Of a stretch of 64,000 nt of DNA, positions 2,580 to 55,485 are shown in pieces. Under the pieces are notes generated by a model that saw only the letters and a list, made by a program, of their open reading frames with translations, did no database searches and was not told the DNA's origin. The stretch lies in assembly GCA_044229975.1 (NCBI GenBank), contig JBGARZ010000005.1, positions 256,001-320,000 on the forward strand, read 5' to 3'. The position numbers were made by a program, and so were the translations under genes. The DNA comes from Polyangiales bacterium (GTDB lineage Bacteria > Myxococcota_A > Polyangia > Polyangiales > Ga0077539). Position 1 is the first letter of the stretch. Each line of letters begins with the position of its first letter.

Positions 2580-2769
2580 CACTCCGTTAGTCGATCGAAC
2601 GCGCTCCCACCGCTCGCCTGGTCACTCCCGAAGTCGATCTTCCCGACCTCGGCCCCTCATCCGGTCACTTCCGAAGTCGATTTCCCCGACCTCGACCCCT
2701 CCAACACACACTTCCGAAGTCGGTTTCCCCGGCCCCGAACGTCTCGAAACCACTCCCGGAGTGATTCGG
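2580..2769 (+). repeat. degenerate tandem array, 43-bp period, core CACTYCCGAAGTCG
   Basis: Units start at 2580, 2623, 2666, 2709, 2751 (spacings 43, 43, 43, 42); intergenic. Confidence 0.85.
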
Positions 2770-44499: not shown

Positions 44500-45860
<1,361 letters not shown>

Positions 45861-45864
<4 letters not shown>

Positions 45865-46358
45865 GGCGCGGGCCTGCCCGCGGCGAACATCGCCCCCTCC
45901 GCCGCACGTCGCGCCGTGAGCCCGTTGCTCACGACGAGCTGTCCGTTCTGGCGGACCTTGTTGAAGAGCGCGAGCGCCGCGGGGACGGCGTCCCAGTCGC
46001 GGGCGTTGACCAGCCGCAGCGCGGTGCTGCTCGCGAAGTTTCCCGCGCCGACGTTGTAGACGAAGGACACCAGCGCATCGAACTGCCGCGCCGTCAGCTC
46101 GACCTGCACGCCGCGGTTCACGGCACCGACCGCGGTCGCCGCGTCGGCCTTCAAGAGCCTCGTGGCGGTGGCCTCGTCGATGCCGTTCTTGAAGGCCTCG
46201 CTCGCGATCTCGGCGGCGGTGAGCTTGTGCCCGTACCCGACGGTCGGAAAGCCCGCGACGTCGTTGTAGACCCGGGGCGAAAACGCTCCCGTCCCAGGCT
46301 CACCCTCCCAGCGCTTGATGAGATCGAGGCCCGACGTGCTGATGTCCATCGTCGGCAT
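45861..46358 (-). CDS. GH24 phage-type lysozyme
   Basis: LIKRWEG ... YNDVAGFPTVGYGH, QFDALVSFVYNVG, GLTARRAAE. Confidence 0.92.
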
Positions 46359-46359
46359 G

Positions 46360-47829
46360 TTACGGCACCACCAGCGCAGCGGCGCGCTCCAGGTCGGCCT
46401 CGGACTCGGCGAAGGCTTCTTGCAGGTTCATCTCCTGCGCGCGGGCGTCCCACATCGAGCGGTACGCATCGAGGAGGTCTTGAATCGTGAAGGCCGACGA
46501 GCCGCTGCCGCCGGACTGGTAGGTCACCTCCGCGCGGCGCACGAGCTCCGCGGTCGCCGTCACCGTCTGCGCGCGGTACTCCTCCAGCGCCGCCCTCGCG
46601 TGGGCCCGCGCCGCCCACGCGCCCGACACCTCGCGGTCGATGCGAACCTCCAGCGCCGACGCGAGCGAGCGCTGCGCGTCGGCCTCGGTGTTGGCCCGCC
46701 CGACGAGGCCCTGGTTGCGGTCAAACACCGGCAGCGGAAACGACAGCCCAGCGCTCACGGAGATGCTGCCCGGATCCTGCGTGGCATACGCGCCCACGAA
46801 GACGCTCGGCGACCAGCGGTTCTCGGCGCTCCACCGTGATACCGTGGCCTGCGAGACGACCACCCCGCGACGGGCGAGCTCGAGGTCGGGCCGACGACGC
46901 AGCGCCAGCTCCAGCAGCGCCTGCCGGTCTTCCGGCCCGCGAAACGCTGACAAGCCCTCGCGCGTGATGGGCACCGACGTCACGTCCGGGTCGGCGATGC
47001 GCGCCGCGAGTCGTGCCTCGGCGCGGTCGCGCTCCACCCGCGCGTCGTTGAGCGCCGCGCGCAAGGTCGAGGCGCCCACGCGAACCCGCAGCGCGTCGTA
47101 GGTCGAGCTCGCCCCGGCCGCGAGGCGCCGCTCGACGATCTCCTCCAGCCGCGCCACCTGCGCGAGGTTGGCCTCGGCGACGGTCACCCGCGCGTCCGCG
47201 AAGGCGCGGGCGACCATCAGGGCCTGGAGGTCGGAGGCCATGGTCCAGAGCGACACGGCGACGTTGACCTCGCTCTGCGAGAGGGCCGCCACGGCCGCGT
47301 CCCGGCGCGCGCGCACCTGGCCAAACACCGTCAGCGGCTGCGTGAGCTGGATGCCGTAGTTGGTGCGGCCGTCGGGGGGCGTTCCGGCGGGGGTGCCGAC
47401 GAAGTTCACCTGCAACGAGGGGTTGGGCCACAGCGCCGCCGTGACGACGTCGAAGCGCGCCTCGCGCACCTGCGCCCGCAGCGACGCCACCTCCTGGCTA
47501 CGGTCGGCCCAGCGACGCAGCACGCTCGCCTCGGTGACCGTCGCGCTCTCCGTCGTCTGCGCCGCCGCAGTGACGGGAGCGAGCGCGAGCAAGACGAAGG
47601 CGGCGACGGCGAGCAGAGGGCGGTTGCGGTGTGCCCCTTTCCCCGCTGCCGCGCGCCCTACCCCCGCGCTCAGGGCGCAGGGGCAGGGCTCCGCACGTTG
47701 CCAGGTTCGCGCTTGGTCTGCGGACGTCGGAGCCCTGCCCCTGCGCCCTGAGCGCGGGGGTAGGGCGCGCGGCAGCGGGGAAGGGGGCACACCGCACGCA
47801 AGAACAAGACGCATCCAACGACCCATCAT
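46360..47829 (-). CDS. TolC/CzcC-family outer-membrane factor with in-frame palindromic insert in the N-terminus
   Basis: PNP, ALRRRPDL, FPLPVFDRNQG; ATG 47829 overlaps the RND stop (ATGA). Confidence 0.88.
   Translation of the reverse strand: MMGRWMRLVLACGVPPSPLPRALPPRSGRRGRAPTSADQARTWQRAEPCPCALSAGVGRAAAGKGAHRNRPLLAVAAFVLLALAPVTAAAQTTESATVTEASVLRRWADRSQEVASLRAQVREARFDVVTAALWPNPSLQVNFVGTPAGTPPDGRTNYGIQLTQPLTVFGQVRARRDAAVAALSQSEVNVAVSLWTMASDLQALMVARAFADARVTVAEANLAQVARLEEIVERRLAAGASSTYDALRVRVGASTLRAALNDARVERDRAEARLAARIADPDVTSVPITREGLSAFRGPEDRQALLELALRRRPDLELARRGVVVSQATVSRWSAENRWSPSVFVGAYATQDPGSISVSAGLSFPLPVFDRNQGLVGRANTEADAQRSLASALEVRIDREVSGAWAARAHARAALEEYRAQTVTATAELVRRAEVTYQSGGSGSSAFTIQDLLDAYRSMWDARAQEMNLQEAFAESEADLERAAALVVP
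47625..47796. repeat. long inverted repeat, 69-bp arms (1 mismatch), 34-nt spacer; MITE/REPIN-like
   Basis: 47625-47693 is the reverse complement of 47728-47796. Confidence 0.92.
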
Positions 47830-50800
47830 CGCGACTCCTCCCCCACCAGCGAGGTCGGCGCGGAGGGGCCGTCGCCTCGCTCGATCCATGCGTAGAGCAC
47901 CGGCAACGTGAGCAGCAGCAGCGGCGTCGCCAGCAGCACACCGCCCACGATCACCAACGCGAACGGACGCTGCGTCTCGCTGCCCATCGCGTGCGAGAGC
48001 GCCGCGGGTAGCAGGCCCAGCGCCGCCAGCGTCGCCGTGATGAGCACCGCGCGCATGCGGCGGGCCGTCCCCTCGGTGATGGCCTCGGCGAGGGTCATCC
48101 CCTGGTCGCGCAGCTCGTTGATGGACGACACCACCACCACGCCCGCGAGCACCGTCTGACCCAGCAGCGCGATGCCGCCGACGATCGCCGACACCGAGAG
48201 GTTCACGCCCGTCAGCGCCAGCGCGAGGGCCGCGCCCGGCAGGCACATCGGCGCCGCAGCCAGCACCACCAGCGCGCTGCGCATCCGACCGAACACCCCG
48301 TACAGCAGCGCCCCGATGAGCAGCAGCACGATGGGAACGATGAACGCCAGCCGCCGCATCGCCCGCTGCTGGCTCTCGAACTCGCCGCCCCACGTCATCG
48401 TGTAGCCCGATGGCAGGTGCACCGAGCGCCCCACCCGCTGCCGCGCGTCGGCCACCACGCTGCCGAGGTCGCGGCCCTCGATGTTGAACTTCAGCGCGAT
48501 GAAGCGTGACCCCTGGTTGCGCTGGATGGCCGCGCGACCCGTCCCGACGTGCACCGTCGCCAGGGCACCCAGCGGAACCCTCGCCCCGCCCGGCGTGCTC
48601 ACCGGAATCTCGCGGATGCGATCGATGCCCAGTCGGAACGGCTCGGCCAGGCGCACCGCCACCTCGACGCGCCGTTCGCCCTCCCAGATCTCCGTCGCCA
48701 CGTCGCCGCCGATGGCCGCCTCGATGACGTCGTCGACGTCCGCGACGCGCAGCCCGTAGCGGGCGATGGCCTCGCGGTCGATGTCGAGCCGCAGCTGCGG
48801 CACGACCCCCGTCTGGTAGAGCCCCAGGTCGCGCACTCCCCGCACCGGCGCGATGGCGTCGCGCACCTGTTCGGCGAGGCGCTGCATCACGTCGAGGTCG
48901 TCGCCGTAGATCTTGATCGCGACCTTGCCCTTGATGCCGGAGATGCTCTCCAGGACGTTGTCGACGATGGGCTGCGAGAAGATGTACTGCACGCCCGGAA
49001 CCTCCGTGAGCCGCGCGCGCATCGCCTCGACGAGCTGCGTGCGCGAGCGCCCGGTGGTCCACTCCTCCTCGGGGCGCAGGCTCACCATGATCTGCGCGAT
49101 GTTCACCGGGGCGGGGTCGGTCCCGTCCTCGGGGCGGCCGAGCTGCGAGACGGCCTCGCGCACCTCCGGGAAGCTACGGATGATCGCGCGGAGCTGCGGC
49201 ACGATGCGCTCTCCCTCTTCGAGCGACTGCGACGGCGGGAAGAGCGCGCTCACGAACATCCCGCCCTCGTTGAGCTCGGGGAGGAATTCCGACCCGAGCG
49301 TGCGGCCCGCGAGCCCGGCGACGAACACCGCGGACAGGGCGATGGCGCCGACGATCTTCCGCCGCGAGAGGCCCCAGGTGATGACCCGCTCGTAACCGCG
49401 ACGCAGCGCCGAGACCCAGCGCGGCTCGGGGTGATGACCCGGCGCGGGCAGCTTGATGGCCAGCCGCGACAGCGCGGGAACGATGGTGAGCGACCACACG
49501 AGCGCGCCCAGCAGGGCGAAGCCGTAGGTGAGCGCCATGGGGGCGAAGATGCGTCCCTCGACGCGCTCCATGGTGAAGATGGGGAGCAGCGCCGCCGTGA
49601 TGATCGCGAGCGAGAACACCACCGGCCGCACCACTTGAGCAGCGGCCTCGCGCACCACGTCGGCGCGGTTGAGGTCAGGGCGCGTGGCGCCGACGTGATA
49701 GACGGTCTCGACGAAGATCACCGCCCCGTCGACGAGGATGCCGAAGTCCACGGCGCCCAGCGAGATGAGGTTGGCGGGCATCTTCAGGAGGCGCAGCCCC
49801 GTGAAGGCAGTGAGCAGCGCGAGCGGGATGACCGTCGCCACCACGAGCGGCCCGCGCCACGCGCCGAGGAAGAGCATCAGCACCAGCACCACGAAGAACG
49901 CCCCCTCGACGAGGTTGTGCTTCACCGTGTGGAGCGAGCGCTCCATGAGGGTCGTTCGGTCGTAGTAGGGGACCACCCGAGCGCCGCGCGGGAGCACCTC
50001 GCGGTTGAGGCGATCGACGGCTTCGTGGATGCCCGCAAGCACCACCGCGGGGTGCGATCGCTTGCGGAGGAGCACGATGCCTTCGGGCGATTCGTTTTCG
50101 GCGCCACGACCGACCACCCCGCGACGCGGGACGTGGCCGAGCACCGTCTGCGCGACGTCGTCGAGGTGCACCGGAACACCACGCGGCGCCGACAAGGCGA
50201 CGTGGGCGAGGTCGCGCGGGTCCTGGAGATAGCCGAGGCCGCGGACGACGTACTCCTCCGCGCCGTGGCGGAGGTAGTTGCCGCCCGCGGCGCCCGACGA
50301 CCGCTGTAGCGCCGTCACCACATCGGGAATGGACAGCCCGCGCGAGGACAGCCGCGTCGGGTCGACGTGCACCTGGTACTGCCGCTGGAAGCCGCCGAAG
50401 GAGACCACGTCGGCCACGCCGGGGACGCGCCGCAGGTAGCGCGAGACGACCCAGTCTTGCAGGCCACGACGGTCCATGGCCGTCATGCCGGGGGCCTCGA
50501 TGGTGTAGCGGTAGACCTCGCCGACGGGCGTGGACTCGGGGCCGAGGTGGGCGATGAGACCTTCGGGGAGATCGACCTCGCGCAGCCGCTCGCCGACGCG
50601 GGTGCGCGCGAGAAAGTCATCGGCGCCGTCGTCGAAGGTGCAGGTGATCTGCGAGAGACCGAACACCGAGATGGACCGCAGGTCGACCATGTCGGGCGTC
50701 CCGGCGAGCTCGCGCTCGATGGGGATGGTCACCTGCCGCTCGACCTCTTCCGCGGCGCGTCCGGGCGCGACGGTGATGATCTGCACCTGGAGGTTGGTGA

Positions 50801-50924
50801 CGTCGGGGAAGGCCTCGATGGGGACCCCGAGCATCTGCCCGTACCCGATGAGCGCCGCGATGATGGTGACGACGACGACGGCCCAGGGCTTCTGCACCGC
50901 GAGCGAGACGAGCTTCTGCAACAT
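47826..50924 (-). CDS. CzcA/CusA-family heavy-metal RND permease
   Basis: EAFPDVT, EEVERQVT.PIE, SLGAVDFGILVDGA, GSEFLPELNEG, GSETQRPFA. Confidence 0.94.
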   Translation of the reverse strand: MLQKLVSLAVQKPWAVVVVTIIAALIGYGQMLGVPIEAFPDVTNLQVQIITVAPGRAAEEVERQVTIPIERELAGTPDMVDLRSISVFGLSQITCTFDDGADDFLARTRVGERLREVDLPEGLIAHLGPESTPVGEVYRYTIEAPGMTAMDRRGLQDWVVSRYLRRVPGVADVVSFGGFQRQYQVHVDPTRLSSRGLSIPDVVTALQRSSGAAGGNYLRHGAEEYVVRGLGYLQDPRDLAHVALSAPRGVPVHLDDVAQTVLGHVPRRGVVGRGAENESPEGIVLLRKRSHPAVVLAGIHEAVDRLNREVLPRGARVVPYYDRTTLMERSLHTVKHNLVEGAFFVVLVLMLFLGAWRGPLVVATVIPLALLTAFTGLRLLKMPANLISLGAVDFGILVDGAVIFVETVYHVGATRPDLNRADVVREAAAQVVRPVVFSLAIITAALLPIFTMERVEGRIFAPMALTYGFALLGALVWSLTIVPALSRLAIKLPAPGHHPEPRWVSALRRGYERVITWGLSRRKIVGAIALSAVFVAGLAGRTLGSEFLPELNEGGMFVSALFPPSQSLEEGERIVPQLRAIIRSFPEVREAVSQLGRPEDGTDPAPVNIAQIMVSLRPEEEWTTGRSRTQLVEAMRARLTEVPGVQYIFSQPIVDNVLESISGIKGKVAIKIYGDDLDVMQRLAEQVRDAIAPVRGVRDLGLYQTGVVPQLRLDIDREAIARYGLRVADVDDVIEAAIGGDVATEIWEGERRVEVAVRLAEPFRLGIDRIREIPVSTPGGARVPLGALATVHVGTGRAAIQRNQGSRFIALKFNIEGRDLGSVVADARQRVGRSVHLPSGYTMTWGGEFESQQRAMRRLAFIVPIVLLLIGALLYGVFGRMRSALVVLAAAPMCLPGAALALALTGVNLSVSAIVGGIALLGQTVLAGVVVVSSINELRDQGMTLAEAITEGTARRMRAVLITATLAALGLLPAALSHAMGSETQRPFALVIVGGVLLATPLLLLTLPVLYAWIERGDGPSAPTSLVGEESR

Positions 50925-52030
50925 CACAGCACCTGTTCGGCGGCGGCATCGAGCAGGAGGGCGCCCTCCACCACGACGCGCTCTCCCACGCGCAAGCCCT
51001 CGCGCACCTGGGCGCGTCCATCGAGCTCGGCGCCCACCACCACGCGACGCCGGTCGTAGTGGCCGGGGGTCGTCTCGACGAAGACGTTGTAGCCGTTGGA
51101 CTCGGTGATGAGCGCGCTCACCGGGACGATGGGGACACCGACGGACTGCGTTCGCACCGTGACGCGCGCGAACATCTCGGGCTTGAGCGCGTGGTCGGGG
51201 TTGGGGAGGCTGATGCGGACGACGAGGGTGCGGGTGTTGGGGTCGACGGCCTCGGCCACGCGGTCGACGACGCTGGTGAAGCGACGACCGGGGAGCGCGG
51301 GGACGTCGATCTCGACGGCGTCGCCCGCGTTGACGGCCGAGCCCTGCGCTTCGTGCAGGTGGGCGAGCACCCAGACGCGGTCGAGGTCGGCGATGAGGAA
51401 GGCCGGGTCGACGGCGCTCGATCGCGCCTCGGCGCCGACGCGGAGGGAGCGCTGGACGATGGTTCCGGCGATGGGCGCGCGGAGGATGTACGTGCCGACG
51501 GCGACGCGCGGTGCGCCCATGCTCTGGAGCACGGCGCCCGCGCGGGCCTCCTCGGCGCGCGCCGTGGCGAGGGCGGTGCGGGCGTCGATGACGTCGCGCT
51601 GCGATCCGGCCCCGTCGTCGGCGAGGCGCTGGGCGCGGGCGAGCGCCTGCTCGGCGGCGACGCGGTTGATGCGCGCCTCGGAGAGACCCGCCCCGGCACC
51701 GGCGACCTCGGCGCTGTACACGTTGGCCAGGGCAGCGCCCGCGAGAACGTGGTCACCCGGCGCGGCGAGCAAACGGATGACGCGACCCTGGACGGGCGGG
51801 ATGACGGCGGCGACGTTGCTCTCGTCGAGGGTGACGCTGCCTTGCGCGACGATGGCCGCGCCGTGGGCGTCGAGCGCGACGGGCTCGATGCGCATGAAGT
51901 TGGAGAGCGGAACAGGCGGGGGCGCGCGATCGGGCGGCGGGTGGCGGGTGCAGCCGCCGGGAGCGGCGAGTGCGCCGAGGGTGAGCAGGAGAGAGCAGAG
52001 GTGACGGGGGAAGGCAGCGGTCCGGGGCAT
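50924..52030 (-). CDS. RND periplasmic adaptor (CzcB-like)
   Basis: Lipobox-like PGGC; APIAGTIV, ADLDRVWV, DPNTRT, LKPEMFA, GLRVGERVV. Confidence 0.9.
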   Translation of the reverse strand: MPRTAAFPRHLCSLLLTLGALAAPGGCTRHPPPDRAPPPVPLSNFMRIEPVALDAHGAAIVAQGSVTLDESNVAAVIPPVQGRVIRLLAAPGDHVLAGAALANVYSAEVAGAGAGLSEARINRVAAEQALARAQRLADDGAGSQRDVIDARTALATARAEEARAGAVLQSMGAPRVAVGTYILRAPIAGTIVQRSLRVGAEARSSAVDPAFLIADLDRVWVLAHLHEAQGSAVNAGDAVEIDVPALPGRRFTSVVDRVAEAVDPNTRTLVVRISLPNPDHALKPEMFARVTVRTQSVGVPIVPVSALITESNGYNVFVETTPGHYDRRRVVVGAELDGRAQVREGLRVGERVVVEGALLLDAAAEQVL

Positions 52031-55069: not shown

Positions 55070-55127
55070 CGAGCGGCGCCCTCCCGTAGTGCGCGAGCTT
55101 GAGTCGCAGCGTCCCGGGTCGAACCCA

Positions 55128-55371
55128 CCGCGTCCACGCCGGAGTTCACCGTGCCGTCGCCGCGCCCATCACGCTCGGTTCACTCCGGGCTATTTCACGC
55201 GGATCGCCCCGCCCGAAGCGGGGCTCAGTGAATCTGATCCTGAGCCACCAACCGTGGCATGGGGGGGCGCCTGAGCCCCGCTTCAGGCGGGGCGATCCGC
55301 GTGAAATAGCCCGGAGTGAACCGAGCGTGACGGGCGCGGCGACGGCACGGTGAACTCCGGCGTGGGCGCGG
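55128..55371. repeat. intergenic long inverted repeat, 101-bp arms (3 mismatches), 42-nt spacer; REPIN/MITE-like
   Basis: 55128-55228 is the reverse complement of 55271-55371; each arm holds a short GCCCCGC..GCGGGGC hairpin. Confidence 0.92.
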
Positions 55372-55485
55372 CGGGCTGTCCGACTCTGGAAGCGGAGGAG
55401 AAGTCAGTGTCCTCAGTGGACACCACCCGCCCTCCCCGTCCCCGATGACCTTTGCGCCGATCGGCGGTACACCCTCGACCCACCC

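What the first reader, a model, noticed from the sequence alone, without database searches (positions are those of the whole stretch)
47625..47829. 172-bp palindrome inserted in frame in the signal-peptide region of tolC
Seen: 69-bp arms with 1 mismatch lie between the translationally coupled ATG (47829, ATGA overlap with the RND stop) and the hydrophobic core LLAVAAFVLLALAPVTAAA. The frame stays open through it and adds 57 codons (CGVPPSP...GKGAHR). Removing 171 nt gives MMGRWMRLVLANRPLLAVAAFVLLALAPVTAAA|Q, a normal-looking signal peptide. No ATG/GTG lies between the hairpin and the hydrophobic core. Known analogue: Rickettsia palindromic elements insert in frame in genes. Inference: a coding-tolerant selfish hairpin hiding in a cleaved peptide, or an RNA structure that tunes expression of downstream tolC-lysozyme-regulator.
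Basis: partly seen in the sequence, partly recalled or inferred. Interest (0 to 1): 0.75.

Follow-up and report, generated by a model that had tools for sequence, protein, structure and literature searches.

The report
Selfish hairpin lodged in signal peptide
A 172-base DNA hairpin, one copy of a repeat family whose arms also sit beside small DUF559 nuclease genes, has landed in frame just after the start of an outer-membrane efflux gene, where it is likely translated as a long extension of the export signal that is predicted to be cut off; related bacteria show the same thing at other exported-protein genes.

Summary
The hairpin is real (69-nt arms, one mismatch, frame open from an SD-led ATG overlapping the RND stop). 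It is one of 10 two-arm copies in this genome and occurs in 7 of 9 genus genomes. Its core motif lies beside 11 of 28 DUF559 (Vsr-like nuclease) genes and 0 of 53 controls, and beside none of 4 RAYT-type loci: probably a non-autonomous DUF559-cassette derivative. Hairpins here land a median 25 nt behind stop codons, which in coupled gene pairs is the next gene's signal-peptide n-region. Of 13 such filled alleles in relatives, 9 keep the frame (DUF559-type 5 of 5); the 4 others have candidate internal starts. Best reading: a selfish insert tolerated in a cleaved peptide; no sign of a selected regulatory role. Translation, cleavage and mobilisation are untested, and no read bridges it. In-frame palindromes are known (RPE, intragenic REPs), and this scan noted DUF559 cassettes and repeats in signal peptides on other DNA.

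The parts
47625..47796 (.). Palindromic element: two 69-nt inverted arms around a 34-nt spacer
47728..47796 (-). 5' arm (mRNA sense); carries its own internal REP-like hairpin at about 47734-47768
47625..47693 (-). 3' arm; similarity to the half copy at G000:C33 continues to about 47621
47633..47788 (.). Conserved family core shared with copies in other genomes; the outer 8 bp are copy-specific
   Evidence: (most matches span query 73-228)
47694..47727 (.). Spacer/loop, near-identical in the C33 half copy
47835..47841 (-). Shine-Dalgarno-like GGAGGAG inside the RND 3' end
47797..47829 (-). Original N-terminus MMGRWMRLVLA; start ATG overlaps the RND stop; MMGRW is shared with the empty orthologue P0001
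47596..47625 (-). About ten extra codons (NRPLLAVAAF) beyond the palindrome, absent from the empty orthologue by length; they supply part of the present h-region; origin unresolved
   Evidence: boundaries approximate: no DNA for P0001
47557..47616 (-). h-region LLAVAAFVLLALA and c-region PVTAAA|Q (predicted signal peptidase I site after codon 90)
   Evidence: cleavage inferred from the AxA rule (own knowledge)
46360..47829 (-). Outer-membrane efflux protein gene (TolC/CzcC-like, PF02321), 489 aa, intact
47826..50927 (-). RND transporter gene (PF00873) whose stop overlaps the tolC start

Best explanation
The hairpin is one copy of a genus-wide repeat family, likely a nuclease-less derivative of a DUF559 (Vsr-like) endonuclease cassette, that inserted 33 nt after the coupled start codon of a TolC/CzcC-type gene and is likely translated as part of a 90-residue signal peptide that would be cleaved off, leaving the mature channel unchanged. 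Shown: the family; its arms beside DUF559 genes; the empty orthologue with the same start; the open frame; the recurrence at other exported-protein genes. Inferred: (1) the DUF559 nuclease acts in trans to move the hairpin; (2) hairpins land or persist just behind stop codons, and at overlapping stop/start junctions that place is the n-region of the next gene; (3) selection removes alleles that break the gene, so survivors keep the frame or supply an internal start, and a signal-peptide n-region is the cheapest place for 57-67 extra residues; (4) a ribosome closely following RNA polymerase reads through before the 69-bp stem closes. No host benefit is needed.
For: Family: 14 arm hits at E<1e-3 in the genome; 10 two-arm copies of this type among 230 hairpins; 7 of 9 genus genomes; exact 31-mer in 51 stretches of 6 assemblies among 185,579 genomes. 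Partner: the genome's only DUF559 gene starts about 50-80 nt from a family copy; core motif within 400 nt of 11 of 28 DUF559 loci against 0 of 53 control loci; 13 of 30 DUF559 loci are bracketed by an inverted repeat (my reading); in G005 (L070) near-identical arms form both a hairpin and the brackets of the gene; 0 of 4 Y1_Tnp loci carry these arms. Empty site: P0001; other orthologues have 19-25-aa signal peptides. Landing zone: median 25.5 nt from a stop codon (256 sides) against 106.5 nt from a start (160 sides); this copy is 30 nt from the RND stop. Recurrence: PEGA lipoprotein behind guaA filled in G004, G005 and G002, all in frame, two families, with a scar in G003; secreted protein behind a conserved upstream gene (L201-L209) filled in frame in G004, G001 and G006 with three different hairpins; G000 C34 lipoprotein filled in frame, three orthologues empty. 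Tally: 9 of 13 scorable alleles in frame, DUF559-type 5 of 5; chance per allele is at most 1/3, about 0.15 with the open-frame rate. Long Sec signal sequences exist (PMC2805444, abstract). R. conorii proteins with N-terminal RPE-1 are reported as expressed (PMC3733652, section 15).
Against: No expression, proteomic or read evidence; no contig bridges the hairpin. 4 of 13 filled alleles are out of frame with the coupled start (G000 C23 and C4, G002 L203, G004 L186), so frame keeping is not absolute. Seven of the 13 were found with a filter needing an open frame; of the 6 found through orthologues, 4 are in frame (P about 0.02-0.10). G004 and G005 may share one ancestral insertion. 17 of 28 DUF559 loci lack this motif, and the G000 gene has a hairpin on one side only. 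No target-site duplication (longest direct match 7 nt, reached by 62 of 500 shuffles) and no excision or insertion intermediate was seen. The ten extra codons are unexplained. The RNA stem is extremely stable (-184.7 kcal/mol). The genome holds 7 matches to the tolC query, so selection on this copy may be weak. PMC3733652 (section 15) argues that most 5'-end REPs in three species are not translated.
Confidence: 0.66

Rival explanations
1. The insert is not productively translated. The hairpin blocks ribosomes or is cut by RNase III, so tolC is silenced or made from a weak downstream CTG/TTG, and the open frame is luck.
For: Very stable stem; non-coding-like codons; a priori chance of in-frame and open at this one site is about 2/9 (2 of 3 sense frames open); redundant paralogues; PMC3733652 section 15 on 5'-end REPs.
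Against: The mature region is intact and 93% identical to P0001. A CTG or TTG start would give a signal peptide with no basic n-region or a cut h-region and has no SD. A full h-region sits behind the hairpin. The frame is kept in 5 of 5 DUF559-type alleles.
Confidence: 0.15
2. Same survival story, but the hairpin is moved by a RAYT tyrosine transposase or another host function, and DUF559 genes are merely frequent neighbours or passengers.
For: The genome has four Y1_Tnp loci and REPIN-like families of the same architecture. Elements nest inside each other (L058, L126). No paper found shows DUF559 mobilising DNA; one shows a Caulobacter DUF559 protein as a proposed repair nuclease (PMC12907096, passages).
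Against: Each Y1_Tnp gene is bracketed by its own, different arm family and none by this one; the motif lies at 11 of 28 DUF559 loci and 0 of 53 controls.
Confidence: 0.1
3. The hairpin has been kept because it regulates tolC and downstream genes, as an RNA processing site or a translational brake.
For: It lies on the operon transcript between RND and tolC; repeats next to genes can alter mRNA stability (PMC3733652, background passage).
Against: Absent from all orthologous junctions examined. At the two hotspot genes it comes, goes and swaps family between close relatives. No terminator-like site. Predicted accessibility of the SD region barely changes as the hairpin is transcribed (0.27, 0.24, 0.24). 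Lysozyme not found near the orthologues.
Confidence: 0.06
4. Assembly artefact (fold-back chimera or misplaced repeat).
For: No public contig bridges the element.
Against: The arms are unrelated to their flanks and are shared with other loci and genomes. The same anatomy occurs in independently assembled genomes. One 151-nt contig of run X6 covers 47487-47637 with one difference, including the ten extra codons and 13 nt of the arm (too short to count as a bridge).
Confidence: 0.03

Closest known systems
REPINs with RAYT transposases (PMC3116915, passages; PMC3337134, search listing and abstract start)
   Same: Two short palindromes in inverted orientation around a variable spacer, forming one long hairpin; many dispersed copies, mostly between genes and close behind stop codons; a low-copy candidate mobiliser gene carrying the same arms.
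   Different: The gene carrying these arms is a DUF559 Vsr-like nuclease, not a Y1 tyrosine transposase (0 of 4 Y1 loci). Arms are about 60 nt. GGAG faces the spacer rather than the outer end.
Rickettsia palindromic elements (Ogata 2000; seen only as cited in PMC3733652 and PMC3184786) and intragenic GTAG/CGTC REPs (PMC3733652, section 15)
   Same: A 100-230-nt palindrome in frame within protein genes, including N-termini.
   Different: Different phylum. Only 6 of 44 two-arm copies are in coding sequence, and 5 of those 6 lie in signal-peptide n-regions behind a coupled start. Sequence kinship with RPEs was not tested.
Enterobacterial RU-2/YPAl repeats in predicted signal peptides (PMC2759123, passages)
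   Same: [quoted passage not shown]
   Different: There the repeat supplies the N-terminal part of the signal. Here it splits an existing n-region behind a conserved coupled start, with empty and independently filled orthologues.
Hairpin-bracketed DUF559 cassettes noted earlier by this scan (e1-1112384, e1-2180718, e1-4798874; unchecked AI notes)
   Same: GC-rich double-hairpin arms bracketing a DUF559 gene; frequent in-frame position in genes.
   Different: This copy carries no nuclease gene; it is the short, non-autonomous form.
Caulobacter CIR repeats (listed in PMC3184786 table; further detail recalled)
   Same: About 110-170-nt intergenic inverted repeats in a GC-rich genome; recalled as having similar C-rich arms.
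   Different: Sequence relationship not tested; no CcrM context examined.

Membership tests
REPIN/RAYT | Two REP-like palindromes in inverted orientation around a spacer | tested here: met
   Each arm folds into its own hairpin and the two arms pair
REPIN/RAYT | Many copies, mostly extragenic | tested here: met
   7 of 10 own two-arm copies and 31 of 34 copies in relatives show no coding overlap by my codon model
REPIN/RAYT | Same repeats flank a RAYT (Y1_Tnp) gene | tested here: not met
   0 of 4 Y1_Tnp loci in the genome carry these arms; each has other arms. Y1 loci of relatives were not examined.
REPIN/RAYT | GTAG-like tetranucleotide at the REP end | tested here: inconclusive
   GGAG precedes the internal hairpin on the spacer side and GTAG follows it (sequence); neither marks the outer end
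Rickettsia palindromic element (RPE) | In-frame insertion in protein-coding genes | tested here: met
   6 of 44 two-arm copies
Rickettsia palindromic element (RPE) | Sequence homology to RPE-1 to RPE-8 | not tested
   No RPE sequence was fetched; Rfam gave no match above a gathering score
Rickettsia palindromic element (RPE) | Insert translated in vivo | not testable with these tools
MITE (IS-derived) | Target-site duplication | tested here: not met
   Longest direct match between flanks 7 nt, 62 of 500 shuffles reach it
MITE (IS-derived) | Short terminal repeats matching a DDE-transposase IS | not tested
   No IS survey was run; the arms match DUF559 loci instead
DUF559 hairpin cassette (scan-internal name, not a published family) | Arms shared with repeats bracketing or adjoining DUF559 genes | tested here: met
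   11 of 28 against 0 of 53; L005, L069, L070, L071, L087, L090
DUF559 hairpin cassette (scan-internal name, not a published family) | Carries the nuclease gene | tested here: not met
   34-nt spacer only; this is the non-autonomous form
DUF559 hairpin cassette (scan-internal name, not a published family) | Mobilised by the DUF559 protein | not testable with these tools
   Association only
Intrinsic terminator | Short stem followed by a U-tract | tested here: not met
   0 sites in 45700-48200

The most novel reading that the evidence does not exclude
Vsr-like DUF559 nucleases are an undescribed class of REPIN mobiliser. Their stop-poor hairpin offspring have a coding-compatible lifestyle: they repeatedly colonise the n-regions of signal peptides at translationally coupled junctions, always in frame, are translated as 50-80-residue arginine/proline-rich extensions, and are discarded by signal peptidase. 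Signal peptides would then be safe harbours for selfish DNA, and their h-regions are rebuilt behind the insert.
Probability: 0.35. Interest if true: 0.7.

Novelty: new variant of a known kind. Interest (0 to 1): 0.42.

Why it matters
How REP/REPIN-like hairpins without a RAYT spread, and how RPE-like inserts get into genes, are open questions. This case offers a testable candidate mobiliser (a 130-aa DUF559 nuclease with matching arms) and a simple rule for where coding inserts survive (behind a stop codon that overlaps a start, in a cleaved signal peptide). Two genes filled independently by several hairpin families in one genus make a natural experiment on how much a Sec or lipoprotein signal peptide tolerates. 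It also warns annotators: such genes get truncated or odd starts. The single insertion in tolC is, by itself, probably near-neutral.

Tried and rejected
RAYT as cognate mobiliser: four Y1_Tnp loci have other arms. Target-site duplication: none beyond chance. Extended pairing of the flanks or SD sequestration, suggested by the fold: not better than shuffles (58-285 of 300). The idea that C/T-rich flanks make new Leu-rich h-regions: the skew is slight (pyrimidine fraction 0.53-0.56), so it is not adopted. Reads: 17 runs listed, all with shares under 0.2; 8 laid, no bridge and no joint of the empty form; lack of cover proves nothing. Metagenome scans for a DNA-level empty site: nothing with the single protein, two 71% relatives with the alignment. 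DNA for P0001 could not be obtained, so the exact insertion ends stay open. Arm motif in viral contigs: 0. DUF559 inside widely spaced arm pairs (L058, L126): no, these hold nested hairpins of other families. Rfam: only generic hairpin matches below gathering scores. Literature: no paper describing DUF559 genes bracketed by palindromic repeats was found in searches; I recall a name for REP-associated endonucleases but could not confirm it, and subscription papers are not searched. Two searches for palindromes in signal peptides gave only the Delihas papers. A Fisher test of 3 of 10 against 1 of 217 coding copies gave P=2e-4 but is not relied on: copies are not independent, and 7 uncertain other-family cases (three with internal starts, C33:4594, C20:106151, two possible C-terminal read-throughs) were counted as non-coding.

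Full report
OBSERVATION. The repeat finder gives arms at 47625-47693 and 47728-47796 (69 nt, 99% complementary, 34-nt spacer). The strand folds at -118.3 kcal/mol as DNA, z -18.3. The gene around it is an outer-membrane efflux protein (PF02321) behind an RND pump (PF00873) and a membrane-fusion protein; sources name its relatives cobalt-zinc-cadmium efflux outer-membrane proteins. The ATG at 47829 overlaps the RND stop and has GGAGGAG five bases upstream. Codons 12-68 cross the hairpin without a stop. The only later near-cognate starts before or in the h-region are CTG (codon 72) and TTG (codon 80), without an SD. The collection holds exactly this 489-aa protein. The window lies in a 10.0-Mb, 71% GC genome; names attached to relatives point to uncultured Myxococcota.

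EMPTY SITE. P0001 is 93% identical, 422 aa, in the same 90% cluster, and begins MMGRWSHLGLLALLALAPATAAAQ. The shared MMGRW fixes the true start upstream of the hairpin. The alignment needs one 67-residue gap: the 57 hairpin codons plus about ten more. The old h-region seems to have been split (LVLA stays upstream), and a full one now lies behind the insert. I could not get P0001's DNA, so the ends are approximate. There is no target duplication beyond chance. Orthologous junctions in G005, G003 and G012 are also coupled, with short signal peptides and no hairpin.

FAMILY. BLAST and an iterated profile find 14 arms at E<1e-3 in the genome. A census found 230 long inverted repeats; clustering gave 22 groups, 10 copies in the group of this element. 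The element matches 7 of 9 genomes of the genus, often dozens of times. An exact 31-mer occurs in 51 stretches of 6 assemblies among 185,579 genomes; a related motif was not found in viral contigs. Copies share a core of about 150 nt, with each arm carrying its own small hairpin, and differ in spacer and in copy-specific outer extensions. This is REPIN architecture.

PARTNER GENE. The genome's four Y1_Tnp loci are each bracketed by other arm families. Its single DUF559 gene (EVDGDVH motif, which I recall as the Vsr-type EDxHD site) directly follows a family copy. Across the bacterial family, 25 of 31 genomes have DUF559. Of 30 loci fetched, 13 are bracketed by an inverted repeat (my reading). 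The core motif lies within 400 nt in 11 of the 28 that align to the G000 protein, against 0 of 53 control loci (four loci picked for carrying the element were left out of the controls). In G005 the same arms form a hairpin and close the far side of the gene. In G019 the arms at the DUF559 gene recur as a stand-alone hairpin elsewhere (L076, L023). Mobilisation by DUF559 is an inference from this association. One paper describes a Caulobacter DUF559 protein as a proposed repair nuclease (PMC12907096, passages). I found none describing hairpin-bracketed DUF559 genes. The scan's own notes list 15 findings with these words; I saw them after forming the DUF559 reading.

WHY HERE. With a codon model trained on the genome, hairpins lie a median 25.5 nt from a stop codon and 106.5 nt from a start; REPs show the same 3' closeness (PMC3733652, section 15). 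At an overlapping stop/start junction that zone is the next gene's N-terminus. Among 44 two-arm copies of this type (10 own, 34 from relatives; 5 further pairs were dropped for lack of the anchor motif), five lie in frame in a signal-peptide n-region behind a coupled start (this one, G000 C34:375486, L039, L123, L105), one lies in frame in a low-complexity linker (C36:99306; alignment), and 38 show no coding overlap. Listing closed frames too found no copy of this type with a stranded h-region. Orthologue searches turned two genes into natural experiments. The PEGA lipoprotein behind guaA (gene name from the recalled C-terminal motif) is filled in G004, G005 and, by another family, G002, all in frame. 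G003 keeps an 11-nt scar of the arm, and G000, G001, G006, G007 and G008 have no hairpin. A second secreted protein is filled in frame in G004, G001 and G006, out of frame in G002, unscorable in G005, and empty in four. Two G000 genes filled by other families are out of frame with the conserved coupled start but have an in-frame ATG in the spacer; one of their orthologues is filled in frame (G003) and one out of frame with its own ATG (G004). Tally: 9 of 13 in frame; DUF559-type 5 of 5, others 4 of 8. Chance is at most 1/3, about 0.15 given 2.5-2.8 open frames of 6. Seven of the 13 were found by a filter that needs an open frame; of the six found without it, four are in frame (P 0.02-0.10). 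G004 and G005 may share one event. A cytoplasmic case (aroE-like, C32:1063916) is out of frame with a GTG in the arm and is not in the tally.

HOW IT WOULD WORK. Shown: position, frame, family, empty orthologue, recurrence. Inferred: the coupled ribosome starts at 47829; the stem begins at +34, beyond the initiation footprint (own knowledge), and predicted SD accessibility hardly changes with it. The product has a 71-residue n-region with 13 Arg/Lys and 2 Asp/Glu, then a normal h-region and AAA|Q. Long Sec signal sequences occur in autotransporters (PMC2805444, abstract). Cleavage would leave a mature protein like P0001's. The stem (-184.7 kcal/mol as RNA) may lower output or be cut by RNase III; this is untested. 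Nothing points to a selected regulatory role: no terminator, no conservation at the site, and no lysozyme near orthologues in 10 of 10 loci.

LIMITS. No read evidence: 8 of 17 runs laid, none bridges the hairpin; one short contig covers the downstream junction by 13 nt. Gene calls are from my own simple model. Supplements of PMC3733652 (list of intragenic REPs) were not opened and may hold signal-peptide cases.

VERDICT. It works like an intragenic REPIN or RPE but is neither by the tests run. In-frame palindromes and repeats in predicted signal peptides are in print (PMC3733652, PMC2759123, PMC3184786; passages and one section seen). The DUF559 link and the repeated independent filling of the same n-regions were not found in print, though this scan has met both on other DNA. 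New variant of a known kind; interest 0.42.

Noticed in passing
window 55124-55375: A larger hairpin (105-nt arms), intergenic; member of a large REPIN-like group whose arms also bracket Y1_Tnp (RAYT-type) genes at G000:C34:47434 and C23:54594.
   Followed up: partly
G000 whole genome: At least 230 long hairpins in about 20 groups, with four Y1_Tnp genes each bracketed by its own arm family and one DUF559 gene: an unusually rich REPIN-like mobilome.
   Followed up: partly
G000:C32:31912-32059: A 148-nt hairpin of another family in frame inside an HTTM / vitamin-K-dependent carboxylase-like membrane protein gene.
   Followed up: partly
G000:C36:99306-99452: DUF559-type hairpin in frame in a Pro/Ala linker of a 1460-codon FecR-domain gene; the G003 orthologue keeps peptide traces of a decayed copy (GEGEPK, RERGVGGEV).
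   Followed up: partly
L163 (G003), guaA-lipoprotein junction: An 11-nt remnant of the arm left in frame after loss of the element: a scar.
   Followed up: partly
L058 and L126: Nested elements: a hairpin of one family inserted inside an arm of the DUF559-type hairpin.
   Followed up: no
L204 (G001): The hairpin is flanked on both sides by codons for H-L-V with synonymous differences, like a decayed target duplication.
   Followed up: no
L023 (G019): A different DUF559-type hairpin lies between genes just upstream of that genome's tolC orthologue; its arms match those at the DUF559 gene in L076.
   Followed up: no
window 45861-46358: A lone phage-type lysozyme gene (PF00959) wedged between tolC and a sigma-54 response regulator, overlapping the latter's start; not found near tolC orthologues.
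   Followed up: partly
G008: 13 DUF559 matches, many partial, at contig ends or with stops: a possible recent burst and decay.
   Followed up: no
G000:C33:233747-233858: Half copy nearest in sequence to the focal element (spacer plus one arm), just ahead of a 1207-codon gene; the other arm is largely lost.
   Followed up: partly
L131 (G003), contig end: An arm directly before a lipoprotein h-region, in the same reading frame as the tolC copy; upstream part missing, so not scored.
   Followed up: partly
window 2610-2738: Three tandem 43-nt repeats, 65-81% alike (D9).
   Followed up: no
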